IMG/VR virus record: IMGVR_UViG_3300009034_004089
DNA length: 15,049 nucleotides
Reading direction: 5' to 3' (one strand)
From: a virus
Lineage: Duplodnaviria; Heunggongvirae; Uroviricota; Caudoviricetes
Shown: one piece after another, positions 1 to 9,879 of the stretch
Position numbering within the stretch: the stretch's first letter is position 1
How the letters are laid out: every line of letters starts with the position of its first letter
Notes under the pieces: model-generated
What the model was told of the DNA's origin: nothing
Databases searched by the model: none
What the model saw: only the letters and a program-made list of their open reading frames with translations
Made by a program: the position numbers and the translations under genes

Positions 1-1284
1 TTACAGACTTCTGGAAGGTTGCGCAGCTCTTACAACACGCGGTTGATCTTCCGCAGCGTCTTCCAGCGCACTTAAATCACGGTCTTTCACCTCTGGCATT
101 TTCAGCGCAGAGATTAAACCAATCACTGAATATGCCATGATCATAATGGCGATCGGATACCAGGATTCCGTCATGGTGCAGAAAATACCCGCCAGGATAG
201 GACCAAAACCGGAAGCGATAAGACCACCAATTTCTTTAGAAATAGCCATCCGGGTAAAGCGGTTTTTACAGCCGAACATTTCTGCCATGGTAATGTTTTC
301 CAGAGCAAATAATCCCAGCACCGCACAGTTATGAATCACAATCAGTGCAACCATAATGGTGCTCGGGGCATAGCTTTTATCTACAATGATAGAAAGCATT
401 GGCCATGCCAGCACAATCGCGGAGGTATTCATAATAATATACGGGATCCGGCGACCAATTTTATCGGATAACCAACCAAGGAACGGAATGGTCATAAAGC
501 CGAGAATCGAACTAATCATCAATGCATCTGTTGGAATTGCTTTGTTAAACAATAACGTCTGCACTAAATAGCCTGCAAGGAAAGTCTGAATTAACCCGGA
601 GTTACCCGCCTGACCAAAACGCAGCCCTGTTGCCAGCCAGAAGGATTTGCTCTGGAACATGCTACCAGCAGGTGCAGGTTTTGCTGTGGGTTGGTTGCTG
701 TCATTAACCTTCTCAAAGACCGGGCTTTCTTTCAGATTCATACGTAACCAGATAGCAAAGACCATCACGACAACGCTCGCCAGGAACGGTATACGCCATC
801 CCCACGCCAGCAGTTCCTCTTTACTGAGAATGAAGAACATAAAGGCCCAGATTGCCGTTGCGCTCAAGGTTCCGCAGTTAGTTCCCATAGCTACAAATGA
901 GGAGATAATTCCGCGCTTACCTTTTGGTGCATATTCCGCCAGCATCGTACCGGCACCGGAAATTTCCGCACCTGCACCCAACCCCTGAATAATACGCAGC
1001 GTCACCAGCAAGATGGGGGCAAAAACACCAATCTGTGCATAGGTCGGTAACACACCAATTAAGGTGGTACAGATCCCCATCATGGTGATGGTAATAAAGA
1101 GCACTTTTTTACGCCCTATTCTGTCGCCCATTTTGCCGAAAATAAATGCTCCGACAATACGCGCCACATAACCTGCACCGTAGGTTCCCATTGCCAAAAT
1201 TAACGCCATTGCCGTTGATGATTCAGGAAAAAATATTTCATGAAACACTAACGCTGCGCCGAGCGAATATAACTGGAAATCCAT
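1..1284 (-). CDS. ydfJ: MFS transporter, metabolite:H+ symporter family (ShiA-like); the ORF begins abruptly at the prophage junction, consistent with an N-terminally truncated chromosomal gene
   Basis: 427-aa ORF ending at window base 1 (stop included); MFS-type multi-TM composition with GxxxDRxGRK-like motif (GKMGDRIGRKK); N-terminus (MDFQLYSLGAALVFHEIFFP) aligns from memory to an internal position of ShiA-type transporters, i.e. first TM segment missing; matches my recollection of K-12 YdfJ (pseudogene interrupted by Qin). Confidence 0.8.
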   Translation of the reverse strand: MDFQLYSLGAALVFHEIFFPESSTAMALILAMGTYGAGYVARIVGAFIFGKMGDRIGRKKVLFITITMMGICTTLIGVLPTYAQIGVFAPILLVTLRIIQGLGAGAEISGAGTMLAEYAPKGKRGIISSFVAMGTNCGTLSATAIWAFMFFILSKEELLAWGWRIPFLASVVVMVFAIWLRMNLKESPVFEKVNDSNQPTAKPAPAGSMFQSKSFWLATGLRFGQAGNSGLIQTFLAGYLVQTLLFNKAIPTDALMISSILGFMTIPFLGWLSDKIGRRIPYIIMNTSAIVLAWPMLSIIVDKSYAPSTIMVALIVIHNCAVLGLFALENITMAEMFGCKNRFTRMAISKEIGGLIASGFGPILAGIFCTMTESWYPIAIMIMAYSVIGLISALKMPEVKDRDLSALEDAAEDQPRVVRAAQPSRSL

Positions 1285-1887
1285 AATTCACAGGTGTTTT
1301 TTCCCATCCTGTGGTTCCCTTGGCGTTTTCTAGGTTTTTTCAGATAGTTGCATTTTTTAAAAAGCATCCTGAGTTCGATCTCAGTGTCTATCTGGGGCCT
1401 ATTTCTGTCCCATATATGCCCCAAAAAAACTCCCCAACAGATAAGTGGTTTTTTCATGGATTTATGCGTAAAATCAAGAACGGCTGGAAATCATTCAATA
1501 CACACACTATCGAAAAATTTACCAGCCAACCGCAGCACGTTCTTGCATAAGGCGTGTCTGCGGTTTTTCAACTATTCAGATACATCACTCCCATCACATT
1601 CATTCCTCCGCATCAAAGGCATATAGGCTATATCACCTTGATATTTTTCTTCTTCAGATAAAAACTGTTATCTATGTATACTTTTAAACCCAATCCGTGT
1701 AGAGTCTCTGCATAAGATAGTTTGCAGTTGCCGCTTCAGCTTGCGCCATAAACCGCCTGATTTTTGCTGCCACCTGTTAGCATTCCTGTATACCTGAAAC
1801 GACAATGTTTATCTACGAACTTTAAGAACACCCAAGATAAAAATCGTCAACTATATCATATATAACACATTAATAATTCGAGGCTAT

Positions 1888-2001
1888 ATGAACAGCATAC
1901 TGATAATCACTTCTCTCCTTATCATATTCAGCATTTTTAGTCATGCCCTAATAAAATTAGGGATTGGCATATCCAATAACCCAGACAAAACCGATGTATA
2001 A
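1888..2001 (+). CDS. Candidate small hydrophobic protein (37 aa, one predicted TM helix)
   Basis: ATG at 1888 preceded by GAGG at 1880-1883; translation [37 protein letters not shown], stop TAA 1999-2001; below the 60-aa cutoff of the ORF track; AT-rich intergenic context upstream of ynaE/ydfK. Confidence 0.25.
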
Positions 2002-2069
2002 GTCAACATATTCTGAATCAGACATACAATATCGCAATGAAAATCAATAATATTTTAAGGAATATCTTC

Positions 2070-2303
2070 ATGAAATCAAAAGACACCCTAAAGTGGTTCC
2101 CTGCGCAGCTTCCTGAAGTAAGAATTATCCTAGGGGATGCTGTAGTGGAAGTAGCAAAACAGGGAAGACCTATCAATACCAGAACATTGCTTGATTACAT
2201 TGAAGGAAACATAAAGAAAAAATCATGGCTGGATAACAAAGAATTATTACAAACAGCGATATCAGTTCTTAAAGACAACCAAAATTTAAATGGTAAAATG
2301 TAA
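2070..2303 (+). CDS. ydfK: YnaE/YdfK-family prophage protein (cold-shock-induced in K-12), 77 aa
   Basis: ORF 2037-2303; the MKSKDTLKWFPAQLPEV... portion from the ATG at 2070 matches remembered K-12 YnaE/YdfK over the full length; AAGGA upstream; ynaE (Rac) and ydfK (Qin) paralogues cannot be told apart by eye, ydfK chosen because of the ydfJ neighbour. Confidence 0.8.
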   Translation: MKSKDTLKWFPAQLPEVRIILGDAVVEVAKQGRPINTRTLLDYIEGNIKKKSWLDNKELLQTAISVLKDNQNLNGKM

Positions 2304-2465
2304 TATAATTAACTTACTTTTTTATCATTTTCCACTTTAACAACATTTTGCTCCACTTTTCCACGACCAAACAACTTGAAATCTGGTTAAAATAACACGC
2401 AACACTATTCTTCTTCCTTGAGTCCGCCCGGAACTCGAAAAACAAACCGAGTTAAAGCCATTTTT

Positions 2466-2483
2466 CACAAAATCGATTTTGGG
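2466..2483. promoter_or_regulatory. Near-perfect palindrome CACAAAATCGATTTTGGG (perfect 14-bp core CAAAATCGATTTTG) about 135 bp upstream of pin; candidate recombinase or regulator binding site
   Basis: Seen directly in sequence; AAAA-N4-TTTT architecture loosely resembles hix/gix-type crossover sites of serine invertases, but the match is weak and no partner site was found. Confidence 0.25.
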
Positions 2484-2618
2484 TCTCACCAAAATTACGG
2501 GGTTGCATACGCATTCGTTTATTTTCGAACGTGTACATACAAATATGCACAAAAATAATCAAAATTATTTTCTGAGATGCATTATGATATGAACACCAAT
2601 TTCGTATAGAGTCTCACT

Positions 2619-3209
2619 ATGTCTCGAATTTTTGCTTACTGTCGGATATCAACGCTGGATCAGACCACCGAAAATCAACGCCGGGAAATCGAAAGTGCAG
2701 GTTTTAAAATCAAACCTCAGCAAATAATCGAAGAACACATTAGCGGCTCAGCAGCAACCAGTGAGCGTCCTGGTTTTAACCGGTTGCTTGCTCGCCTGAA
2801 ATGTGGTGATCAATTGATTGTGACAAAATTGGATCGCCTTGGTTGTAATGCAATGGATATCAGGAAAACAGTGGAACAACTGACCGAAACAGGTATCAGA
2901 GTGCATTGCTTAGCATTGGGGGGCATTGACCTGACCAGTCCAACAGGAAAAATGATGATGCAAGTAATTTCAGCAGTCGCTGAATTTGAACGAGACCTTT
3001 TACTTGAACGCACTCATTCCGGGATAGTAAGAGCCCGCGGCGCAGGGAAACGTTTTGGTCGACCACCTGTGTTAAATGAAGAACAGAAACAGGTGGTATT
3101 CGAACGAATTAAGTCAGGTGTAAGTATAAGTGCCATTGCCCGGGAATTCAAAACCTCGCGGCAAACCATTTTAAGAGCCAAAGCAAAACTTCAGACACCT
3201 GACATATAA
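2619..3209 (+). CDS. pin: Serine recombinase / DNA invertase of the PinR/PinQ family, 196 aa
   Basis: Full-length ORF; N-terminal catalytic motif YCRISTLDQ with the nucleophilic serine; C-terminal HTH region; matches remembered K-12 PinR/PinQ (the paralogues are near-identical, so which one is not resolvable by eye). Confidence 0.9.
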
Positions 3210-3306
3210 AAAATAATCTCGGTGTGAGATGCTTTACGTCTTCCAAGCCCCCTTCCTTGCCGTAAATGGAAAGATACATCTAATTATAGAATTTATATGT
3301 TTTACC

Positions 3307-3417
3307 CTACGGCAGTGCTGGCCATTCAATATCCTGTGCAGTTGACGTATCAACACGGTTCAGCAATACCCGATACTTTTTCCATGCTTCCAGCAACGAG
3401 GTTTCTTCCTCCGTTGC
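3307..3417 (-). pseudogene. tfa: Tail fibre assembly protein (Tfa) C-terminal remnant, about 36 codons
   Basis: Minus-strand frame reads ...[36 protein letters not shown], matching the C-terminus of K-12 TfaR/TfaQ; upstream in-frame sequence ([17 protein letters not shown]) is unrelated and overlaps the 97-aa gene in another frame, so only the 3' end of tfa survives. Confidence 0.7.
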
Positions 3418-3436
3418 ATATACAGCCCACCTTTTT

Positions 3437-3730
3437 TCACCCACGATTAACCAACAGCCAGACCAGCAGACACGCCACCACCGGCACAGCAAAATCCATC
3501 AGGCTTGCCACATCCCACGCGCGCGGATCAAAACCGCCCCACCACGGCATATTCATTCGCTTGCCATGCCCGAACATTTCAATCCAGCGATATTCTGCCT
3601 GGGTATGTTCACGCGCAATGAAGAACGTACAACCGGCTATCGCTCCGTAAGCCCAGTTTCCGGTAAAAAGACCAACCAGTATCTGCGCAGCCACAGCACA
3701 AAGTGCATGAAGTAAGGGGCTTATATCCAT
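3437..3730 (-). CDS. Hypothetical small integral membrane protein (97 aa, about 3 predicted TM helices)
   Basis: ATG at 3730 preceded by GGAGG with a 5-nt spacer; 12-nt gap to the upstream 92-aa gene; hydrophobic stretches [51 protein letters not shown]; not recognised. Confidence 0.6.
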
Positions 3731-3742
3731 TATTTCCTCCTT

Positions 3743-4021
3743 TCAGCTCCATTCCCGAAGCGGTGTTTCCAGCTCCACGACATAATCAGAGAATACAGAA
3801 ACATCAAACAAGTCATCAAGAATGCGAATGTTGACAAAATAACCGTTATTCCGGATACAGACAGGTTCTCCCTCTTCAGTTACCCCTGTTTCTGTGTAGG
3901 TGAAACCAATTTCATCGACTAACAGTTTATTCTGGAGGTCTTCATCTTCCTCCCAGTCAAGAGATGACAGGAAGGATTTAAACTCTCTGTTACCAGGAAA
4001 TTTCAAAGTTAAATCTTTCAT
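3743..4021 (-). CDS. Hypothetical acidic soluble protein (92 aa)
   Basis: ATG at 4021 overlaps the TGA of the upstream 251-aa ORF (ATGA coupling); AGGAGG directly upstream; acidic composition (DWEEDEDLQ, EEGEP); not recognised. Confidence 0.6.
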   Translation of the reverse strand: MKDLTLKFPGNREFKSFLSSLDWEEDEDLQNKLLVDEIGFTYTETGVTEEGEPVCIRNNGYFVNIRILDDLFDVSVFSDYVVELETPLREWS

Positions 4022-4773
4022 ACTGCCTCCTTGATTTGCCTGTCATTTAATTCTTTAAACCAGACTCTGAAATTTCTGATGTGTCCAAACAAATGACGCG
4101 TTCCTGCTGCGGTCTGCCCACCAAACCGGTACGATGTTGCTGTAACTCCAAATATTTTACCATTAAGGTTTGTTGTATAATTACCATTGCATATTGCATT
4201 TACTGATAAATCAGATTTAGCTCTCACACCCACAATGAACCTTTCTCCATCTGAGGAAATTTGTGGCTGAACCATTCCTACGTTGGCGCTTATCTTTCCT
4301 GTTGAAACAAACCCCAGCGATAAATAATTATCATCAATACTGTGCCCTCCAACATCAAATATCCTTGGCGCAACATTGGGCGGTGTACTCCAGTTCCTCC
4401 TTACTTCGCACAATACTGTAAAAGGCCGTGTTGACAGGTTATTCGCCGAGGGGATAGTAACCACATCACTTGCGCGTGTTGTTGGCATTGTAGTTACAAT
4501 AAATGACGATGCCGTATTGCCCAGTTCAATTTGCGGCGTCGTCATGGTTAATGTTGAGTCATCATAGAATGGCTCATTACTTATTTTATTTGTCATATAA
4601 AAAGCACAGTTAACGGTATCAATGTCCGTATTAGCTGTATAAGTGGCCTCATAGTAGGTCCACTCGCCCTGTTGTTCAGCTTTGGCTGTTATAAGGGATG
4701 TATTACCGCTTACTGTTGCGATCCGGGTATTCGCCTTTATCGGTGTAAAATTCATCTGGCGACATACCGCCAT
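4018..4773 (-). CDS. Hypothetical beta-rich protein (251 aa) with a C-terminal region resembling a LamG/concanavalin-A-like jelly-roll lectin domain; possibly a receptor-binding or adhesin-type module
   Basis: T/N/S/G-rich composition typical of beta-sandwich fibre or lectin domains; C-terminal FGGQTAAGTRHLFGHIRNFRVWFKELNDRQIKEAV resembles the last strands of Laminin_G_3-type domains (pattern recognition only); in-frame stop 3 codons upstream of the ATG; no clear SD; first of three coupled genes. Confidence 0.55.
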   Translation of the reverse strand: MAVCRQMNFTPIKANTRIATVSGNTSLITAKAEQQGEWTYYEATYTANTDIDTVNCAFYMTNKISNEPFYDDSTLTMTTPQIELGNTASSFIVTTMPTTRASDVVTIPSANNLSTRPFTVLCEVRRNWSTPPNVAPRIFDVGGHSIDDNYLSLGFVSTGKISANVGMVQPQISSDGERFIVGVRAKSDLSVNAICNGNYTTNLNGKIFGVTATSYRFGGQTAAGTRHLFGHIRNFRVWFKELNDRQIKEAV

Positions 4774-5098
4774 CCCGAATCAGCTTTGCCCGGGTTTCCC
4801 CCACAATCTGTTTTTGTCTGGTGTAAGGCTGACGCAAAAACCATTCCCTGTAGGTTGTATCTCCGGCCAGAACAATGACCGGAACAGAATCCATTTTGAG
4901 CATTTCAGCCGCCATAACACGACCGTGACCCGCAATAATTTCGCCCTTTTCGTCAATCAGCACCGGATTAGTCCAGCCGAATTGCTTAATACTTTCTACC
5001 AGTTGTGCCACCTGCTCAGTACTGTGCGTCCTGGCGTTGTGCGCATACGGTGACAATTCTTGTAATGGGCGATAGACTATCTTTAATTTCTCGCTCAT
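4703..5098 (-). pseudogene. ynaK: ParB-like nuclease domain protein (YnaK-like), N-terminal ~79 aa conserved then out-of-family tail; truncated at a recombination junction near 4860
   Basis: ORF starts MSEKLKIVYRPLQELSPYAHNARTHSTEQVAQLVESIKQFGWTNPVLIDEKGEIIAGHGRVMAAEMLKMDSVPVIVLAG (ParB N-terminal fold with GHGR motif, as I recall K-12 YnaK); the remaining ~50 codons overlap the 251-aa gene in another frame and look non-native. Confidence 0.65.
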
Positions 5099-5117
5099 AC
5101 AGCCTTGCTTTATGAAT

Positions 5118-5150
5118 AAAACGCACCCCAGCAGCCAGTGCTACTGGGGG
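5118..5150 (-). terminator. Candidate intrinsic terminator downstream of trkG
   Basis: Inverted repeat CCCCAG...CTGGGG (5126-5131 / 5145-5150) followed on the minus strand by a T-rich tract (plus-strand AAAA at 5118-5121). Confidence 0.35.
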
Positions 5151-5235
5151 CGGAGGTGTTGCTGGTAAAGTTAGGTATTGGATCAATGAGTGAGTCAATA
5201 TAATATTAAACTCACAATTATAAATCAGCCATATA

Positions 5236-6693
5236 TTAGGAGCGCCAAAAAAAACCTGAAAACAATATAATAACAGGATAAATTTCAAGGCGACCAAGAA
5301 TCATAGCTATGCACATTAAATATTTTGCAATGTCATTAAGCACTCCGAATGACGATGCAGTAGCCCCAAAACCTAATCCCATATTATTAATACATGCAGC
5401 CACTGTTGCAAATGATGTAAGAAAATCATATCCCATACCATTTAACACCAGTATAAAAAACACCGTGAAGAGAGTATAAAGAAAAAAGAAACTCCATACA
5501 GACCTCATTACACGATCTGTAACTATCTTCCCTCCTACATTTACACTCAACAACGCTCTGGGATGAGAAAGCTGATTTATCTCGTGTTTGCTTTGTTTGA
5601 AAAGTATAAGAAATCGAAGTGACTTAATTCCACCACAAGTTGAACCTATACATCCCCCAAAGAAACTTGACGACAGCAAAAACACTATCGTGTGCGTGGG
5701 CCAGCTTGCATAATCCTGCGTAGCTAAACCATTATCAGTGAGCATGGAGCTGGCAAGAAAAAACGAATGAATAAAACTTCCATGCAAGTCATACATACCT
5801 ATATGCCAGACCTGGAAAGAGGTAACAATGATCACCCCTAAGGCTATTAACAGAAAGAAACGAAGTTCAATATCTCTGATTAAAGGTTTTATCGTTTTCC
5901 TGCTAATAACAATATACCAAAGAGTGAAGTTGAAAGCCGATAGCAGGGAAAAAGAACCAGCCACCAGCTCAACCAAATAGTTATTAAAATATCCGATACT
6001 CTCGCTATGAGTTGAGAAACCACCAAGCGAAACTGTGGAAATCCCGTGACAAATAGCATCAAACAAAGGCATTCCTGCAAGTCTATAACAGACAATACAA
6101 GCAATACCTAATAAAGAATAAGTTATCCACAGTGTCCGTGACGTATCGGCCAGGCGGGGAGTGAGTTTGTCATCCTTAAATGGCCCCGGCATTTCTGACT
6201 GATAAAGCTTTGCACCACCAATACCCAATAATGGCAATACAGCAACCGCCAGAACAATAACTCCTAAACCACCTATAAAATTTAACTGTGACCGATAGTA
6301 CAAATATGCCCGAGGTAATGAACTAACATCATCAATTACAGTTGCTCCTGTTGTTGTTATTCCAGAAACCCCTTCAAACAGAGCATCAATGAACGTTAAA
6401 TTAAGTTCTGAGTCAATCCATAAAGGGAATGCACTAATAACAGAAAACAAAATCCAAAACATTACAATTATAATAAACCCATCACGGGTACGTAATTGAA
6501 TGCCAGATTTCTTAGTTGTATACCACGCTCCGCCACCAATGCAAAAAAATATAACGAAAGTTATAAAGAAAACGAATAGGCTTTTTTCTTTATAAAACAA
6601 TGCTACAACCATTGGTGGCAACATTGAAAGACTATAGAGCCAAACCAGGAACCCACACATATGAGTAACAACTCTTACATGAGATGTATTCAT
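5236..6693 (-). CDS. trkG: Trk-system potassium uptake protein TrkG (485 aa)
   Basis: Translation from the ATG at 6693 (MNTSHVRVVTHMCGFLVWLYSL...) matches remembered K-12 TrkG end to end; multi-TM TrkH/TrkG family; conspicuously AT-rich; the track ORF begins 6 codons earlier at a TTG. Confidence 0.9.
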   Translation of the reverse strand: MNTSHVRVVTHMCGFLVWLYSLSMLPPMVVALFYKEKSLFVFFITFVIFFCIGGGAWYTTKKSGIQLRTRDGFIIIVMFWILFSVISAFPLWIDSELNLTFIDALFEGVSGITTTGATVIDDVSSLPRAYLYYRSQLNFIGGLGVIVLAVAVLPLLGIGGAKLYQSEMPGPFKDDKLTPRLADTSRTLWITYSLLGIACIVCYRLAGMPLFDAICHGISTVSLGGFSTHSESIGYFNNYLVELVAGSFSLLSAFNFTLWYIVISRKTIKPLIRDIELRFFLLIALGVIIVTSFQVWHIGMYDLHGSFIHSFFLASSMLTDNGLATQDYASWPTHTIVFLLSSSFFGGCIGSTCGGIKSLRFLILFKQSKHEINQLSHPRALLSVNVGGKIVTDRVMRSVWSFFFLYTLFTVFFILVLNGMGYDFLTSFATVAACINNMGLGFGATASSFGVLNDIAKYLMCIAMILGRLEIYPVIILFSGFFWRS

Positions 6694-6830
6694 ATCTAAA
6701 TATTCTTTCAATTATAACCACCTTGCTGCAATATTATGATTATACTGTATAAAATTTAACTCCTCTTAGATCTTACTTCACTGTTCCTTATGAAACAATC
6801 ATCAAAATGAATCATATTGTAGTTAAGATT

Positions 6831-7660
6831 TTACTTTAAACACTGTTCGGTTATGTATTGCTGAGCACCTTCAAGTTGGGCCTGCATCATTACCAGTCGT
6901 TCCCGGAGGGTGAAATAATCCCGTTCAGCGGTGTCTGCCAGTCGGGGGGAGGCTGCATTATCCACGCCGGAGGCGGTGGTGGCTTCACGCACTGACTGAC
7001 AGACTGCTTTGATGTGCAACCGACGACGACCAGCGGCAACATCATCACGCAGAGCATCATTTTCAGCTTTAGCATCAGCTAACTCCTTCGTGTATTTTGC
7101 ATCGAGCGCAGCAACATCACGCTGACGCATCTGCATGTCAGTAATTGCCGCGTTCGCCAGCTTCAGTTCTCTGGCATTTTTGTCGCGCTGGGCTTTGTAG
7201 GTAATGGCGTTATCACGGTAATGATTAACAGCCCATGACAGGCAGACGATGATGCAGATAACCAGAGCNNNNNNNNNNNNNNNNNNNNNNNNNNNNNNNN
7301 NNNNNNNNNNNNNNNNNNNNNNNNNNNNNNNNNNNNNNNNNNNNNNNNNNNNNNNNNNNNNNNNNNNNNNNNNNNNNNNNNNNNNNNNNNNNNNNNNNNN
7401 NNNNNNNNNNNNNNNNNNNNNNNNNNNNNNNNNNNNGCATCAGCTAACTCCTTCGTGTATTTTGCATCGAGCGCAGCAACATCACGCTGACGCATCTGCA
7501 TGTCAGTAATTGCCGCGTTCGCCAGCTTCAGTTCTCTGGCATTTTTGTCGCGCTGCTCTTTGTAGGCGGTGGCGTTATCACGGTAATGATTAACAGCCCA
7601 TGACAGGCAGACGATGATGCAGATAACCAGAGCATAAATAATCGCGGCGACTCTGCTCAC
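6831..7660 (-). CDS. Rz (i-spanin, inner-membrane spanin subunit); annotated span is inflated by a 168-N gap plus a 197-bp duplicated overlap; the true gene is about 465 nt
   Basis: N-terminal part (7660 down to 7437, probable GTG start overlapping the endolysin stop) reads [74 protein letters not shown]; C-terminal part (7136 down to 6831) reads [48 protein letters not shown]...EQCLK; resembles K-12 RzpD/RzpR. Confidence 0.75.
6890..7075 (-). CDS. Rz1 (o-spanin, outer-membrane lipoprotein spanin subunit), 61 aa, embedded in the +1 frame of Rz
   Basis: [26 protein letters not shown]... with lipobox LVVVGC and proline-rich tract [15 protein letters not shown]; classic embedded Rz1 architecture. 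Confidence 0.8.
7072..7268. repeat. Copy A of a 197-bp duplicated Rz segment abutting the N-gap (5 mismatches versus copy B)
   Basis: 7072-7268 aligns base for base with 7437-7633 except GGctttgtaggTAA versus CTctttgtaggCGG; ends exactly at the first N. Confidence 0.9.
7269..7436. other. Run of 168 N (scaffold gap)
   Basis: Literal N characters in the sequence; flanked on both sides by overlapping near-identical sequence, the signature of un-merged contig ends. Confidence 0.95.
7437..7633. repeat. Copy B of the 197-bp duplicated Rz segment, starting immediately after the N-gap
   Basis: See copy A; begins exactly at the first base after the N-run. Confidence 0.9.
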
Positions 7661-8190
7661 TGATCTATCCCCCAACAGGCTAATGCGCTTTCCTGGTCAC
7701 GACGAATAACCTGTCCATAGCAGTTATTTGAACGTATGCGGCAATCGCGCCCACCATCTTTTATCCACCAGCGAATCGCCTCGCATGCACCCTTACGATC
7801 ACCGGCATTCAGCCGCTTATAAAACGTCGACGGGAAACACTTACCGGGGCCAATGTTATAGGGACAAAATGACGCTATACCCGCTTTCTGTGGTTCGGTC
7901 AGTGGTACTTTAATATTGCGCTCCACCCATGCCAGCGCCTTATCACGTTCAATAGCGTTAACCTGGTCGCATTTTTCCTTCGACAGCCTCATTCCCGGTA
8001 TGACGGGCTTACCATCCACCATTGTGGCACCACGACAGATGGTCCATATACCGGAACCATCGCGGTATGCCGTTGTGTGGTTACCTTCTTTTTCATCCAG
8101 AAACTGGTCGAGAATATCAGGCGCAGGCGCACCGACGGCAATCAGTGCCAGAACGGCAGCCGACAGGCCGTATCTGATTTTTGCGTTCAT
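7657..8190 (-). CDS. Phage endolysin, T4-lysozyme-like (GH24), with a hydrophobic N-terminal segment suggesting a signal-anchor-release (SAR) type
   Basis: 177-aa ORF; E-x8-D-x5-T catalytic triad context ([19 protein letters not shown]); N-terminal [15 protein letters not shown] hydrophobic stretch; resembles remembered K-12 RrrD/RrrQ; stop overlaps the probable Rz start (GTGA). Confidence 0.85.
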
Positions 8191-8295
8191 GGATATTTAT
8201 CAGGATTTATCGGTTTCTGAACCCTGGATATGTTTATCTGTCCCGGCCTGTTGAATCAGGCAAGGAATAGTTAAATACAATAGAGAGGATTGTTT

Positions 8296-8568
8296 ATGGA
8301 CAATAGCACCATTTCTCTACAGGAGTTGCTCGACTGCATTTCCAAGCTTCGGGATGATGTAAATGCCCTTACTGTCGCATTTTCATATCTGGCATTCTCA
8401 ATTCCCAAGGAACAAATGCAACCAACACTGGCATCGCTCCAGCTTGAATCACTCAACCCCAAATGGTCCCAGCAACAACAAAATTCTTTCAAGTGGCTGG
8501 CGGTATTACTGGAAGAAAAATATGCTGGTGAAATTACCATTTCGGCGGAGTCTTCAGTGAACCAGTAA
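8296..8568 (+). CDS. Hypothetical protein (90 aa), predicted helical, not recognised
   Basis: ATG at 8296 with AGAGAGGA 6 nt upstream; protein-like composition (MDNSTISLQELLDCISKLRDDVNALTVAFSYLAFSIPKEQ...); the overlapping minus-strand frame 8271-8603 translates to low-complexity C/S-rich sequence and is less plausible. Confidence 0.5.
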   Translation: MDNSTISLQELLDCISKLRDDVNALTVAFSYLAFSIPKEQMQPTLASLQLESLNPKWSQQQQNSFKWLAVLLEEKYAGEITISAESSVNQ

Positions 8569-8878
8569 TTCTTCCCGGCAGTTTTCCTTTGTAGGTTATC
8601 CACACACCCTGCGCCTCTAAAATTATGGGGCGCTTTTCCGGTGACTGCTCATCCCCTTCACATAACCCTGCAGCAACATCCAGGAAGACCTGTCTGATGC
8701 TCCTTCTGGCTGCTGCCTCATAAAACTCCAGCGCGGCACCTTCAACACGGTCCAGCGAGATGTCCAGGTCTAAAATTTCACCGTCAAAGCGTTTTTTGTC
8801 CCGTAACGCTAAAGTTACCGTAACTTTATTCTCAAAATTGCGGATCCCTTTCACAATCAGTTCATAGTTTTGAGTCAT
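8534..8878 (-). CDS. Hypothetical protein (114 aa), not recognised; divergent from ydaG, convergent with and overlapping the 90-aa gene by 35 bp
   Basis: ATG at 8878 with GGGGAGAG 7 nt upstream; balanced composition (MTQNYELIVKGIRNFENKVTVTLALRDKKRFDGEILDLDISLDRVEGAALEFYEAAARRSIRQ...); no obvious HTH or Zn-finger motif by eye. Confidence 0.55.
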   Translation of the reverse strand: MTQNYELIVKGIRNFENKVTVTLALRDKKRFDGEILDLDISLDRVEGAALEFYEAAARRSIRQVFLDVAAGLCEGDEQSPEKRPIILEAQGVWITYKGKLPGRITGSLKTPPKW

Positions 8879-9093
8879 TGAATTACTCTCCCCGTGCAGC
8901 CTTACGCTTATCTTCTTTAATCTTGAAATAAAGATTTGTCAGATACGTCAACAGGCCAAACACCAGACTACCCAGCACACCTATTGCTGCCCACTGTGAG
9001 GGCGTGACTCTATCGAGCAACTGTAAAAACCAGTAGCCAGCACTGCCTGCGGAGGTGCCATAGGCGACACCCGGCGTTAAGGGGAGAGATAAG
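8879..9093. promoter_or_regulatory. Divergent intergenic region expected to carry the leftward-early (pL-like) promoter for ydaG-ydaF and the promoter of the 114-aa gene; contains the inverted repeat AATCTT-N6-AAGATT at 8919-8936
   Basis: 215 bp without a plausible ORF between two divergent genes that both carry GGGGAGAG-type SDs; the inverted repeat was seen directly; no confident -35/-10 call. Confidence 0.3.
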
Positions 9094-9228
9094 ATGGTGC
9101 ATTACGAAGTAGTTCAGTATTTGATGGATTGTTGCGGTATCACTTACAGCCCGGCTGTGCAGGCTTTACGTAGCAACGACTGGGATCTCTGGCAAGCAGA
9201 AGCCTCTATCCGCAACAACAAGATGTGA
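9094..9228 (+). CDS. ydaG: Rac prophage small protein YdaG (44 aa)
   Basis: ATG at 9094 preceded by AAGGGGAGAG; translation [44 protein letters not shown]; size and position (upstream of ydaF, flanking sieB) match K-12 Rac; below the ORF-track cutoff. Confidence 0.6.
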
Positions 9229-9238
9229 GGTGCGAAAA

Positions 9239-9394
9239 ATGCAAAAAATCGACCTCGGCAACAACGAATCCCTGGTGTGCGGCGTGTTCCCCAACCAGGA
9301 TGGAACGTTCACTGCCATGACGTATACCAAAAGCAAAACATTTAAAACCGAAACTGGTGCGCGCCGATGGTTGGAGAAGCACACAGTAAGCTAA
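9239..9394 (+). CDS. ydaF: Rac prophage small protein YdaF (51 aa)
   Basis: ATG at 9239; translation MQKIDLGNNESLVCGVFPNQDGTFTAMTYTKSKTFKTETGARRWLEKHTVS; 3' end overlaps the convergent sieB stop by 4 nt; size and order match K-12 Rac. Confidence 0.6.
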   Translation: MQKIDLGNNESLVCGVFPNQDGTFTAMTYTKSKTFKTETGARRWLEKHTVS

Positions 9395-9879
9395 CGATTA
9401 AAACGTCTACTCCTGCTGTTCCAGAATAACTTCATAAAATGGGAGTATTTTTCGGTGACGAGATAATAAGAACAGTTTGCGCTATCACTCTGATGTTGAA
9501 TGATGCCCTTCCGTTCTAATTTTTTCATAACCGGGTTACGGCAAGGAGAAGTGATAATAAGATTTCCTGTTTTAAGGAAATCTTTAAATACAGCGATTTC
9601 TTTCTCAGATAAACGAAGCAATACTCGTTGCTCTGGTAGTAATGAATAATGCTTTTGAATATGCGCTCGCAATCTTGAGAAGGAAATGGCGACCACGAAA
9701 GAAAAGGCAAAAACGATAATCTGAAAGAGCCAAGGTATTTCAGTATAAGCATTGAATGCGACAGTAAACTCTTTCGGTATCAGCCAGAGAGTGAGACCAA
9801 AAATGATAATCGTATACATAAGTCTTTCGAGTGGCTCGTTAGCAAAAAGTTTCAACAATGGAGTAAATACATCCAACAT
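9391..9879 (-). CDS. sieB: Superinfection exclusion protein B (SieB), 162 aa
   Basis: From the internal ATG at 9879 the translation MLDVFTPLLKLFANEPLERLMYTIIIFGLTLWLIPKEF... matches remembered K-12 SieB over the full length; the track ORF extends 41 codons further upstream (to 10002), which I treat as non-coding read-through. Confidence 0.85.
   Translation of the reverse strand: MLDVFTPLLKLFANEPLERLMYTIIIFGLTLWLIPKEFTVAFNAYTEIPWLFQIIVFAFSFVVAISFSRLRAHIQKHYSLLPEQRVLLRLSEKEIAVFKDFLKTGNLIITSPCRNPVMKKLERKGIIQHQSDSANCSYYLVTEKYSHFMKLFWNSRSRRFNR

What the first reader, a model, noticed from the sequence alone, without database searches (positions are those of the whole stretch)
3437..4773. Unrecognised three-gene cassette (lectin-like 251 aa, acidic 92 aa, 3-TM 97 aa) wedged between a truncated ParB stub and a tfa remnant
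Three co-directional minus-strand genes are packed as a unit: the second start overlaps the first stop (ATGA), the third follows after 12 nt, and both downstream genes carry strong GGAGG-type SDs. Both flanks are broken genes (ynaK-like stub diverging near 4860, tfa C-terminal remnant beginning near 3415), so the cassette sits exactly between two recombination junctions, where K-12 Rac carries tail genes. The composition (beta-rich protein with a LamG-like C-terminus, small acidic partner, small polytopic membrane protein) matches none of the Rac/Qin proteins I can recall. Hypotheses, all inference: a receptor-binding or adhesin module with chaperone and membrane partner; a superinfection-exclusion or anti-phage module of the kind often found beside tail-fibre genes; or a toxin/immunity-like set.
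Basis: partly seen in the sequence, partly recalled or inferred. Interest (0 to 1): 0.7.

Follow-up and report, generated by a model that had tools for sequence, protein, structure and literature searches.

The report
Leftover tail-fibre operon in Rac prophage
The three genes are the surviving tail end of a side-tail-fibre operon from a phage-21-like virus in the defective Rac prophage of E. coli B/BL21. The first is only a broken fragment of the fibre gene, and the other two are common but still uncharacterised small phage genes.

Summary
The window is the Rac prophage remnant of E. coli B/BL21(DE3) (100% identity). The three minus-strand ORFs, the ATGA overlap, the 12-nt spacer and both GGAGG sites are real.

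The cassette is not unrecognised cargo. Positions 3361-4730 are 98.6% identical to the 3' end of the side-tail-fibre operon of lambdoid phages 1H12 and 21, which lies directly after gene J.

- **ORF1 (251 aa)** is a pseudo-ORF. It holds the C-terminal ~240 residues (the receptor-binding tip) of a 673-aa Stf. It lacks the N-terminal virion-attachment domain and is fused to a 141-bp scrap of a Mu-F-like head gene. E. coli C still has the intact 674-aa fibre, followed by identical copies of both small genes.
- **ORF2 (92 aa, pI 4.1; PHROG 1361)** follows fibres with this tip in all six phage groups I inspected (154 phage records hold a homologue): lambdoid, T1-like, Dhillonvirus, Queuovirinae, T5-like and rV5-like. 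It is probably a fibre-tip assembly or accessory factor.
- **ORF3 (97 aa, three helices; PHROG 1443)** is a well-conserved small membrane protein with no Pfam family. It closes receptor-binding-protein operons of temperate sipho-, myo- and podophages, in the slots where model phages carry lysogenic-conversion genes. It is probably an envelope or exclusion factor.

No known defence or toxin signatures were found. The locus is ordinary; ORF3 is the only open question.

The parts
4018..4773 (-). ORF1, 251 aa: a chimeric pseudo-ORF, not a complete gene. RefSeq calls it ECD_RS24690 and starts it at 4755.
   Evidence: ORF listing. PHROG 1419 'tail protein' matches residues 13-251 to profile positions 543-793 of 793, E 3.7e-74. 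RefSeq annotation.
4018..4730 (-). 3' remnant of a side/lateral tail fibre gene (stf): the receptor-binding tip only, made of a GTA-spike-fibre/CBM-like beta-sandwich plus a LamG/ConA-like domain.
   Evidence: 98.6% nucleotide identity to phage 1H12 gp23 (673 aa), ending exactly at 4730. Laminin_G_3 hit on residues 102-248 and CBM_4_9 hit on 23-61. NCBIfam GTA_spike_fiber hit. A profile hit to the RcGTA head spike fibre structure 6TB9. The full-length fibres carry PF08400 phage_tail_N at residues 1-131, which is absent here.
4026..4030 (-). GGAGG Shine-Dalgarno sequence for ORF2, inside the end of the fibre gene. The ORF2 start overlaps the fibre stop (ATGA at 4021-4018).
   Evidence: Read directly from the sequence. 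The same overlap occurs in phages 1H12, 21, tonn, KurtStettler and T5_ev219.
3743..4021 (-). ORF2, 92 aa: an acidic cytoplasmic alpha/beta protein (PHROG 1361; WP_000654171). It is the small partner gene that follows tail fibres with this tip.
   Evidence: PHROG 1361, E 4e-39. 154 phage records hold a homologue, and in the listed rows it lies on or next to a tail-fibre gene. hhalign probability 98.3% to rV5-like bas55_0027. AF2 pLDDT 89.6. pI 4.08.
3736..3740 (-). GGAGG Shine-Dalgarno sequence for ORF3, within the 12-nt spacer after ORF2.
   Evidence: Read directly from the sequence.
3437..3730 (-). ORF3, 97 aa: a small three-helix membrane protein (PHROG 1443; WP_000355360) with the motif [24 protein letters not shown].
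   Evidence: PHROG 1443, E 2.4e-58. 100% amino-acid identity to the proteins of phages 21 and 1H12. 577 homologues found. 439 representative clusters, all 58-146 aa among the 150 listed. AF2 pLDDT 91.7. Alignments A1 and A4.
3307..3418 (-). 3' remnant of a tail-fibre-assembly gene (the last 112 nt of tfaR). It is a scar that travels with this module type.
   Evidence: Pfam Caudo_TAP matches positions 95-130 of 131, E 3e-16. 99% identity to K-12 tfaR. RefSeq marks it as a pseudogene. Its promoter-proximal 58 nt (3361-3418) are also present after gp25 in phage 1H12.
4729..4869 (-). 141-bp internal scrap of a Phage_Mu_F / ADP-ribosyltransferase head-morphogenesis gene, lying between the ynaK stub and the fibre remnant.
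   Evidence: 98.6% identity to an internal segment of that gene in E. coli siphophages. PHROG 241 'head morphogenesis' matches positions 299-345 of 679 in the ynaK-frame ORF.
4868..5098 (-). ynaK stub (ParB N-terminal domain). It forms the 5' part of the chimeric 131-aa ORF at 4703-5098.
   Evidence: Pfam ParB_N. 99.3% identity to K-12 as far as 4868. RefSeq marks it as a pseudogene.
2619..3209 (+). pinR serine invertase, the conserved right-hand neighbour of the ORF3-tfa' unit in Rac prophages.
   Evidence: ORF listing. RefSeq annotation in BL21, E. coli C and strain 3359.

Best explanation
The cassette is the 3' end of the side (lateral) tail-fibre operon of a phage-21/1H12-like lambdoid phage, retained in the decaying Rac prophage of E. 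coli B.

**Shown.**
- A deletion specific to the B-type Rac joined the ynaK stub and a 141-bp scrap of a Mu-F-like head gene to the middle of stf. Every head and tail gene was removed, along with the fibre's N-terminal two thirds.
- What is called ORF1 is therefore the receptor-binding tip of the fibre, without the PF08400 virion-attachment domain or the shaft. It cannot build a fibre.

**Inferred for ORF2 (about 0.5).** It is the trans-acting assembly or accessory factor of fibres with this tip.
- It is translationally coupled to the fibre stop codon.
- It follows fibres of this tip type in temperate and virulent phages of six groups.
- These fibres show no Peptidase_S74 hit, whereas the optional second fibre protein encoded after ORF2 always carries one.

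**Inferred for ORF3 (about 0.35-0.4).** It is an inner-membrane protein that acts on the cell envelope of the infected or lysogenic cell, by superinfection exclusion or by masking or altering a receptor.
- It is not needed for fibre assembly, because the virulent phages with the same fibre and ORF2 that I inspected lack it.
- It closes the receptor-binding-protein operon of temperate siphoviruses, myoviruses and podoviruses.
- It sits exactly where model phages carry conversion genes.
- It also exists as domesticated single genes in Aeromonas and sphingomonad chromosomes.

In BL21 the two small genes are intact, but whether they are expressed is unknown.
For: **Identity of the locus**
- The window is 100% identical to BL21(DE3) and other B strains and is annotated there as Rac.
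- Positions 3361-4730 are 98.6% identical to 1H12 gp23(3')-gp24-gp25, and homology to K-12 Rac flanks this stretch.
- In phages 1H12 and 21 the module lies directly after J.
- ORF1 matches only the last third of PHROG 1419.
- The intact 673/674-aa fibres carry phage_tail_N at residues 1-131.
- E. coli C Rac has the intact fibre, identical ORF2 and ORF3, then tfa' and pinR.
- The 141-bp Mu-F scrap is documented.

**ORF2**
- 154 phage records hold a homologue, and in the rows listed it lies on or next to a tail-fibre gene. The ATGA-type overlap is seen in tonn, KurtStettler and T5_ev219.
- rV5-like JeffSchatz has a 110-aa homologue in the same position.
- The fibre tip itself occurs in 205 phage records.
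- The gene after ORF2 in virulent phages and in Rac of strain 3359 always carries Peptidase_S74. The three full-length LamG-tipped fibres and ORF1 that were scanned gave no such hit.
- ORF2 has no signal peptide and a pI of 4.1, and it gives a confident alpha/beta model.

**ORF3**
- Among phage records, homologues are found in lambdoid and other temperate phages but not in the T1-, T5- or Queuovirinae-type carriers of ORF2.
- It comes directly after the tailspike in P22-like JEP4 (4-nt overlap, then int).
- It follows the tail fibre in epsilon15-like phiv142-3, in the slot where epsilon15 has its O-antigen conversion genes.
- It follows a P2/HP1-type fibre in Aeromonas salmonicida, Tfa in phiHAP-1, and a J-like giant fibre or a PHROG-5939 fibre in Comamonas.
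- Chromosomal single genes lie next to pirin in several Aeromonas species and next to ligA and other housekeeping genes in sphingomonads.
- Identity is 57-64% between the E. coli phage protein and Aeromonas or Comamonas copies, and E41, W72 and P83 are invariant across the 40-sequence alignment of the wider family.
- Precedent for small phage proteins that alter the O-antigen comes from the Gnarl1-3 proteins (PMC12373910).
Against: **ORF2**
- It could instead be an adaptor for the second fibre protein, or a virion component.
- At 91% identity it travels with fibre tips that are only ~30-36% identical. It therefore does not co-evolve with the whole tip, only possibly with its conserved last 40 residues.

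**ORF3**
- There is no experimental datum, no PADLOC hit and no informative structural neighbour.
- Its strong conservation across genera is unusual for exclusion proteins.
- It is co-oriented with the late fibre gene and often translationally coupled to it, and the simple scan found no sigma-70-like promoter of its own. That points to late-lytic rather than lysogenic expression.
- In Comamonas prophages and in phiv142-3 it directly precedes the lysis genes, so a lysis-related role is not excluded.
- Partial homologues occur in 234-240-kb Aeromonas phages.
Confidence: 0.85

Rival explanations
1. The three genes together form an anti-phage defence or superinfection-exclusion module beside the tail-fibre genes.
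For: The region next to tail-fibre genes in temperate phages is a known site for accessory genes. sitABCD lies next to the module in phages 21 and 1H12. ORF3 alone may well be an exclusion factor.
Against: None of the three proteins has a PADLOC hit. ORF1 is a truncated structural gene. ORF2 is conserved inside the lateral-fibre operons of virulent T1-, T5-, Queuovirinae- and rV5-like phages. ORF3 occurs without the other two after unrelated receptor-binding proteins.
Confidence: 0.04
2. ORF3 is a holin, antiholin or other lysis-timing membrane protein, not an envelope or exclusion factor.
For: It is about 100 aa with up to three membrane helices, like class I holins. In Comamonas prophages it lies between the fibre genes and a membrane-protein/endolysin/Rz-spanin cassette. 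In phiv142-3 it directly precedes the membrane protein, holin and endolysin. It is co-transcribed with late genes, and the scan found no promoter of its own.
Against: Phage 21 and other lambdoid phages have a complete lysis cassette elsewhere (established knowledge of S21/R21/Rz; that part of the phage was not examined here). The C-terminus ends 1-6 residues after helix 3, without the charged tail typical of holins. The most conserved part is a 34-residue polar loop with invariant residues, which suggests specific binding. The Comamonas and epsilon15-like phages already have separate holin-like proteins. Chromosomal single genes next to housekeeping genes make no sense for a holin.
Confidence: 0.15
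3. ORF2 is a structural adaptor that docks the second, S74-bearing fibre protein onto the first to give a branched fibre. On this reading it is not an assembly chaperone, and it is vestigial in phages that lack the second fibre gene.
For: ORF2 always lies between the first fibre gene and the S74-bearing protein wherever the latter exists: tonn, KurtStettler, T5_ev219 and Rac of strain 3359. Branched lateral fibres are documented in the T5-like phage DT57C (PMC4728585).
Against: ORF2 is kept at 91-98% identity in phages 21 and 1H12 and in E. coli C Rac, which have no second fibre gene. In DT57C, LtfB attaches without any such small protein being described.
Confidence: 0.25
4. The set is a toxin/immunity-like pair or trio.
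Confidence: 0.02

Closest known systems
Side tail fibre module of lambdoid Jouyvirus phages: phage 21 CPT_21_22/23/24 and phage 1H12 gp23/24/25
   Same: Same gene order, same ATGA overlap and same spacers. 98.6% nucleotide identity to 1H12 over 1370 nt. The ORF3 protein is 100% identical, and ORF2 is 91-98% identical.
   Different: In the window the fibre gene lacks its first ~435 codons and is fused to unrelated scraps. The module is followed by tfa'-pinR of Rac rather than by the sitABCD genes.
Lambda / K-12 Rac Stf-Tfa (stfR-tfaR)
   Same: Same position in the prophage, between the tail genes and pinR. The full-length fibres share the phage_tail_N attachment domain, and the phage 21 fibre is annotated as similar to lambda orf-401. 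A tfa 3' scar remains.
   Different: The tip is a CBM-like domain plus a LamG-like domain rather than the lambda/T4 gp37-type tip. The downstream partner is a 92-aa protein unrelated to Tfa (no Caudo_TAP hit).
Lateral tail fibre loci of virulent coliphages (Drexlerviridae, Dhillonvirus, Queuovirinae, T5-like, rV5-like; BASEL collection, PMC8594841), including the branched LtfA/LtfB fibres of DT57C (PMC4728585)
   Same: They have homologous fibre tips (29-72% identity) and an ORF2 homologue that overlaps the fibre stop codon. They often add a second fibre protein.
   Different: The loci of this kind inspected here have no ORF3. DT57C LtfA and LtfB both end in S74 chaperone domains, and no small intervening protein is described there.
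Lysogenic-conversion or exclusion genes next to receptor-binding genes: epsilon15 O-antigen polymerase plus alpha-polymerase inhibitor; P22 gtrABC; P2 Z/fun; T5 Llp; phi80/N15 Cor (the last four from general knowledge)
   Same: ORF3 homologues occupy the same slots: after the tailspike in P22-like and epsilon15-like phages, and after Tfa in a P2-like phage. Like the epsilon15 inhibitor, ORF3 is a small membrane protein.
   Different: There is no sequence homology to epsilon15 gp22 or gp23. ORF3 is co-oriented with the fibre gene and often translationally coupled to it, rather than being a separate unit. It is far more conserved across genera. No function has been tested.
Gnarl1-3, small phage accessory proteins that alter the O-antigen (Silas et al. 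2025, PMC12373910)
   Same: They are small (40-90 aa) stand-alone phage proteins. Their proposed benefit is exclusion of kin phages or prevention of re-adsorption to debris.
   Different: No sequence link was found: motifs of ORF2 and ORF3 are absent from that paper's supplementary files. Gnarl3 binds cytoplasmic GalU, and Gnarl2 is Mu E6.

Membership tests
Lambdoid side / lateral tail fibre protein (PHROG 1419; 'prophage tail fiber N-terminal domain-containing protein') | C-terminal receptor-binding tip homologous to the family | tested here: met
   PHROG 1419 matches residues 13-251 to profile positions 543-793 of 793, E 3.7e-74. 96.7% amino-acid identity to the fibres of 1H12-type lambdoid phages.
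Lambdoid side / lateral tail fibre protein (PHROG 1419; 'prophage tail fiber N-terminal domain-containing protein') | N-terminal virion-attachment domain (Pfam PF08400 phage_tail_N) and shaft, giving a protein of about 670 aa | tested here: not met
   The intact relatives have PF08400 at residues 1-131 (E 3e-67). The window ORF has only the last ~240 residues, and homology ends at 4730. It is therefore a gene fragment, not a functional member.
Concanavalin A-like lectin / LamG fold (Pfam Laminin_G_3) | A score above the Pfam gathering threshold over the whole domain | tested here: inconclusive
   24.9 bits against a cut-off of 27.6, but covering positions 4-151 of 151. The T1-like homologue also hits weakly.
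Tail fibre assembly chaperones (lambda Tfa / Pfam Caudo_TAP; Mu U; T4 gp38) | Sequence or fold similarity of ORF2 to a known chaperone family | tested here: not met
Tail fibre assembly chaperones (functional class) | Encoded immediately downstream of the fibre gene it serves and co-inherited with it | tested here: met
   An ATGA-type overlap with the fibre stop codon in lambdoid, T1-like, Seuratvirus, T5-like and rV5-like phages.
Tail fibre assembly chaperones (functional class) | Needed for folding or trimerisation of the fibre, and binds its C-terminus | not testable with these tools
   This needs co-expression or pull-down experiments, or a multimer structure prediction.
Intramolecular chaperone fibres (Peptidase_S74) | An S74 domain at the C-terminus of the fibre | tested here: not met
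   ORF1 and its three scanned full-length relatives gave no PF13884 hit. The optional third-gene products do have the domain.
Known anti-phage defence systems (PADLOC-DB 2.0) | A match of any of the three proteins to a defence-system model | tested here: not met
   No families matched at E up to 1.
Holins | A small protein with at least one TM segment | tested here: met
   Three predicted helices, two of them strongly hydrophobic.
Holins | A charged, hydrophilic C-terminal tail and a position next to the endolysin gene | tested here: not met
   The protein ends 1-6 residues after helix 3 in most members. In the window and in lambdoid phages it lies after the fibre genes, not in a lysis cassette. 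It is adjacent to lysis genes only in Comamonas prophages and phiv142-3.
epsilon15-type O-antigen polymerase inhibitor / conversion proteins | Sequence homology to epsilon15 gp22 (66 aa) or gp23 | tested here: not met
   hmmsearch with the family profile gives E 0.25 and 0.049, with scores below 3 bits.
epsilon15-type O-antigen polymerase inhibitor / conversion proteins | A position in the conversion slot next to the receptor-binding gene of a temperate phage | tested here: met
   phiv142-3 Orf5 occupies the slot that holds the conversion genes in epsilon15. JEP4_21 lies between the tailspike gene and int.
Superinfection-exclusion / receptor-masking proteins (functional class) | Expression protects the cell from phage or alters the receptor | not testable with these tools
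   This needs plating, adsorption and LPS assays.

The most novel reading that the evidence does not exclude
ORF3 (PHROG 1443) may found a new family of small inner-membrane effectors linked to receptor-binding proteins. The family is carried by temperate siphoviruses, myoviruses and podoviruses of Gamma- and Betaproteobacteria, with chromosomal relatives in Alphaproteobacteria. It has been domesticated in Aeromonas and sphingomonad chromosomes.

On this reading its conserved polar loop targets a conserved envelope component. That would change surface glycans or block phage entry, giving exclusion in lysogens or preventing progeny from re-adsorbing to debris.

Identical copies sit in the standard phage hosts E. 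coli B/BL21 and E. coli C, so the gene could be a hidden variable in their phage-sensitivity profiles.
Probability: 0.3. Interest if true: 0.55.

Novelty: already known. Interest (0 to 1): 0.25.

Why it matters
As a locus it matters little. It is one more decayed piece of the Rac prophage in a laboratory strain, and the '251-aa lectin-like protein' should be annotated as a tail-fibre pseudogene.

Two small points are useful:

1. The 92-aa family is a consistent companion of lateral tail fibres with a LamG-like tip across six coliphage groups. Anyone who swaps such fibre tips to retarget phages or lambda-based delivery particles should probably move this gene with the tip.
2. The 97-aa family is a widespread, strongly conserved and completely uncharacterised small membrane protein. 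It sits in the lysogenic-conversion slots of many temperate phages. Intact, identical copies are present in E. coli B/BL21 and E. coli C, which are routine hosts for phage work, so the simple knockout and expression test is cheap.

Tried and rejected
- **Profile searches.** Pfam, NCBIfam and PADLOC scans of ORF2 and ORF3 gave nothing above noise. Pfam scans of 40 diverse ORF3 relatives also found no family.
- **PDB sequence search.** ORF1 gave no match. A five-sequence profile found only a 40-residue match to the RcGTA head spike fibre.
- **Foldseek against viral structures.** ORF3 had no hit with E at or below 0.001. The afdb50 library was unavailable.
- **The search for related loci.** The search in viral contigs returned only near-identical E. 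coli prophages, and the distant alignment A4 was too divergent to use as a seed.
- **Naive ORF calling in GC-rich genomes** made the per-locus neighbour calls noisy, so I used only family counts.
- **Selection in the remnant.** There are too few substitutions against 1H12 (19 in 1370 nt) to say anything.
- **Literature.** Searches for the RefSeq protein accessions, for 'phage 21 side tail fiber' and for the PhiR phages found nothing relevant. The epsilon15 genome paper is not held.
- **Gnarl proteins.** I checked whether ORF2 or ORF3 are Gnarl proteins. Their motifs are absent from that paper's supplements.
- **epsilon15.** I checked homology of ORF3 to the epsilon15 inhibitor gp22 and to gp23. 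There is none; the hhalign tool failed on these inputs.
- **Rejected for ORF2: a DNA-mimic anti-restriction role.** The protein is acidic, but it lies inside late fibre operons.
- **Rejected for ORF3: a role in fibre assembly.** It is absent from the virulent phages that carry the same fibre and ORF2.
Full report
**Where the window comes from.** Positions 3200-5300 are 100% identical to BL21(DE3), C41/C43, REL606-type and other E. coli B derivatives. In NC_012971.2 the region is the right end of the defective Rac prophage. The gene order there is recT, a truncated recE, racC, kilR, sieB, ydaF, the essD/ydfR/rrrQ lysis genes, trkG, a ynaK pseudogene, three 'hypothetical proteins', a tail-fibre-assembly pseudogene, pinR, ydfK, ynaM and uspF.

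**Checking the observation.**
- The three minus-strand ORFs exist at the stated coordinates.
- The ATGA overlap (4021-4018), the 12-nt spacer and the two GGAGG sites (4030-4026 and 3740-3736) can be read directly from the sequence.
- Homology to K-12 Rac runs from trkG to 4868 (inside ynaK) and resumes at 3418 (the last 112 nt of tfaR).
- K-12 carries ydaY, ynaA, lomR::IS5, stfR and tfaR between those two points.

**What the cassette is.**
- Positions 3361-4730 align without gaps, at 98.6% identity, to phage 1H12. The aligned stretch covers the 3' part of gp23 ('tail protein', 673 aa), gp24, gp25 and 76 nt beyond.
- The same three-gene order is found in the classical phage 21: CPT_21_22 'side tail fiber' (686 aa), CPT_21_23 and CPT_21_24 'putative membrane protein'. 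In both phages the module lies immediately after the J gene.
- ORF1 matches PHROG 1419 only over profile positions 543-793 of 793.
- The intact fibres carry the Pfam phage_tail_N attachment domain at residues 1-131 (E 3e-67). That domain is missing in the window.
- Between the ynaK stub and the fibre fragment lies a 141-bp piece (4729-4869) that is 98.6% identical to an internal segment of a Phage_Mu_F/ADP-ribosyltransferase head gene of E. coli siphophages.
- The first ~14 codons of the '251-aa protein' are read from that scrap in another frame. ORF1 is therefore a chimeric pseudo-ORF containing the C-terminal ~240 residues of a side tail fibre.
- E. coli C shows the undeleted state at the same chromosomal site: an intact 674-aa fibre, then proteins identical to ORF2 (WP_000654171) and ORF3 (WP_000355360), then the tfa remnant and pinR.
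- A third Rac variant, in strain 3359, has Lom, an IS5-interrupted fibre, a 93-aa ORF2 homologue, a 234-aa second fibre protein, the ORF3 homologue, tfa' and pinR.
- The tfa scar is part of the module. Its first 58-76 nt also follow gp25 in phage 1H12.
- The cassette is thus what a B-lineage deletion left of an ordinary fibre operon. It is not cargo inserted between two junctions.

**The fibre tip.**
- Residues ~13-95 resemble a CBM_4_9 / 'GTA head spike fiber' beta-sandwich. A profile built from five tips hits the RcGTA head spike fibre structure 6TB9 over the motif TPQxExG..SSFI.T....TRASD.
- Residues ~100-251 give a full-length but sub-threshold Laminin_G_3 match.
- tblastn finds this tip in 205 phage records: lambdoid phages (96.7% identity), JenP2 (72%), and at 31-44% identity Drexlerviridae, Dhillonvirus, Queuovirinae, T5-like and rV5-like phages.
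- The BASEL papers treat these loci as hypervariable lateral tail fibres that probably bind O-antigen or other surface glycans (PMC8594841).

**ORF2 (92 aa).**
- It is acidic (pI 4.08) and has no signal peptide. It gives a confident alpha/beta model (pLDDT 89.6).
- Its synteny is informative. Homologues occur in 154 phage records, and in the rows listed they lie on or next to a tail-fibre gene. I confirmed the stop/start overlap in T1-like tonn, Seuratvirus KurtStettler and T5_ev219.
- The rV5-like myovirus JeffSchatz has a 110-aa homologue in the same place (hhalign probability 98.3%).
- These phages include virulent ones in which the fibre locus is an isolated operon between replication genes. 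A defence or lysogeny function is therefore unlikely.
- Where a third gene follows, it encodes a second fibre protein with a Peptidase_S74 intramolecular chaperone domain. The three full-length LamG-tipped fibres I scanned, and ORF1, gave no S74 hit.
- My inference is that ORF2 supplies in trans the assembly help that the first fibre lacks in cis. An adaptor role for the second fibre is the main alternative. It is weakened because ORF2 is retained at 91-98% identity in phages 21 and 1H12 and in E. coli C, which have no second fibre gene.
- ORF2 tracks the conserved last 40 residues of the fibre (52-72% identity) rather than the variable tip (29-36%). Those residues are also the conserved core strands of the LamG fold, so this is not proof of contact.

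**ORF3 (97 aa).**
- The model is confident (pLDDT 91.7), with helices at residues 4-23, 26-53 and 74-96.
- Helices 1 and 3 are strongly hydrophobic. Helix 2 is hydrophobic only in its first half and continues into a polar loop rich in K and R.
- The family is larger and better conserved than expected for a small phage ORF. A word-indexed search found 577 homologues. A full HMMER scan found 439 clusters at 50% identity, and the 150 listed are all 58-146 aa, so no fusion proteins were seen.
- Identity is 57-64% between the E. coli phage protein and Aeromonas or Comamonas copies. The block [23 protein letters not shown] is nearly invariant, and E41, W72 and P83 are invariant across the 40-sequence alignment of the wider family.
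- No Pfam family matches, and no structural neighbour is informative.

**Genomic context of ORF3.** Context is the only functional evidence available.
- Among phage records it occurs in lambdoid and other temperate phages, but not in the T1-, T5- or Queuovirinae-type phages that carry ORF2. It is therefore not needed for fibre assembly.
- It is the last gene of the receptor-binding-protein operon in very different phages:
  - after the LamG-tipped fibre plus ORF2 (phage 21, 1H12);
  - after the S74-bearing second fibre (Rac of strain 3359);
  - after a tail protein in an Stx2k phage, followed by dinI and int;
  - overlapping the tailspike stop codon in P22-like JEP4, followed by int;
  - after the tail fibre in epsilon15-like phiv142-3;
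  - overlapping a P2/HP1-type fibre gene in an Aeromonas salmonicida prophage;
  - after the Tfa gene and before the sheath gene in phiHAP-1;
  - after a 2520-aa J-like protein or a PHROG-5939 fibre in Comamonas prophages.
- These are the slots where model phages carry lysogenic-conversion or exclusion genes. Epsilon15 has its O-antigen polymerase and alpha-polymerase inhibitor exactly where phiv142-3 has the ORF3 homologue. P22 gtrABC and P2 Z/fun occupy the corresponding positions; this last point rests on my own knowledge of those genomes and was not tested here.
- In species-level genomes the gene also occurs as a lone chromosomal gene. It lies next to pirin in several Aeromonas species, and next to ligA, DAHP synthase, cytidine deaminase and other housekeeping genes in sphingomonads.
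- I therefore favour an envelope-directed role, either exclusion or receptor masking or alteration. Small phage proteins that alter the O-antigen (Gnarl1-3) are a recent precedent (PMC12373910).
- This is an inference at roughly 0.35-0.4, and there are arguments against it:
  - no PADLOC hit;
  - no homology to the epsilon15 inhibitor;
  - no promoter of its own in the simple scan;
  - frequent translational coupling to a late gene;
  - adjacency to lysis genes in Comamonas prophages and phiv142-3, which keeps a lysis-related role alive at about 0.15.

**Does the trio travel together?**
- Yes within Escherichia lambdoid and Rac-type prophages.
- In Comamonas kerstersii a remotely similar trio occurs: a PHROG 5939/1419-type 388-aa tail protein, a 95-aa PHROG 18574 protein and a 98-aa PHROG 1443 protein. 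ORF2 hits PHROG 18574 only at E 9e-5, and hhalign does not confirm the link, so this homology is tentative.
- The two small genes have clearly different distributions. ORF2 goes with the fibre tip, whereas ORF3 goes with temperate lifestyle and with any type of receptor-binding protein.

**Is the remnant expressed in BL21?** This is unknown.
- A terminator-like hairpin follows trkG (5149-5126).
- The scan found no sigma-70-like site on the minus strand inside the cassette, and the total number of sites did not exceed what shuffled sequence gives.
- The 19 substitutions relative to 1H12 are too few to test for selection.

**Verdict.** This is an ordinary, already-sequenced tail-fibre operon remnant. 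ORF1 is a pseudogene fragment, ORF2 is a conserved fibre companion, and ORF3 is an uncharacterised small membrane protein that may deserve a simple experiment. Nothing supports a three-gene defence or toxin/immunity system.

Noticed in passing
window 4729-4869 (inside the ORF at 4703-5098): A 141-bp internal scrap of a Phage_Mu_F / NAD-asparagine ADP-ribosyltransferase head gene (98.6% identical to E. coli siphophages) is fused in frame to the ynaK ParB stub. The result is a chimeric 131-aa ORF. It shows that the B-type Rac once carried a different head-gene set from K-12 Rac.
   Followed up: partly
L165 (E. coli C, NZ_CP029371.1) 7059-9794; L166 (strain 3359) 439-5436: Rac prophages exist in at least three tail-fibre states. 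K-12 has stfR-tfaR. E. coli C has an intact 674-aa LamG-tipped fibre plus the 92-aa and 97-aa genes. Strain 3359 has the same with an extra 234-aa S74 fibre protein and an IS5 in the fibre gene. E. coli C and B carry identical copies of both small proteins.
   Followed up: partly
window ~6800-9400 (L003 10632-13315): In the B-strain Rac, sieB-ydaF is followed directly by the lysis genes essD, ydfR, rrrQ and a 'lysis protein', and then by trkG. In K-12 the stretch just before trkG holds ydaW, rzpR and rzoR instead, so this part of Rac also differs between B and K-12.
   Followed up: no
L001 7386-10835; L002 6785-10234: Phages 1H12 and 21 carry the sitABCD iron/manganese ABC transporter genes on the opposite strand, immediately after the 97-aa gene. 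The stretch after the fibre operon is therefore a cargo site in these phages.
   Followed up: no
L005 8001-8309; L099, L101, L105 at 5001-5288: At least three Aeromonas species (rivipollensis, aquatica and two A. media strains) have a 56-57% identical copy of the 97-aa gene at the same non-phage locus, downstream of a pirin gene (followed by RIO1 in A. rivipollensis). This suggests a vertically inherited, domesticated copy.
   Followed up: partly
L102 50-6620 (Comamonas kerstersii): A tightly packed prophage operon: a 772-aa fibre, a Tfa-like protein, a 250-aa fibre, a 388-aa PHROG-5939 tail protein, a 95-aa protein, the 98-aa homologue of the membrane protein, a 148-aa unknown, an endolysin and an Rz-like spanin. 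Here the homologue sits at the boundary between the fibre module and the lysis module.
   Followed up: partly
window 5126-5149 (minus strand): A GC-rich hairpin of 10 base pairs followed by a T-run lies between the trkG stop codon and the ynaK start codon. It could insulate the cassette from trkG read-through transcription.
   Followed up: no
L015-L094 (IMG/VR contigs): In many predicted prophage contigs the viral region ends 3 nt after the 97-aa gene. Prophage-boundary predictors therefore commonly place the edge of the phage right after this gene.
   Followed up: no
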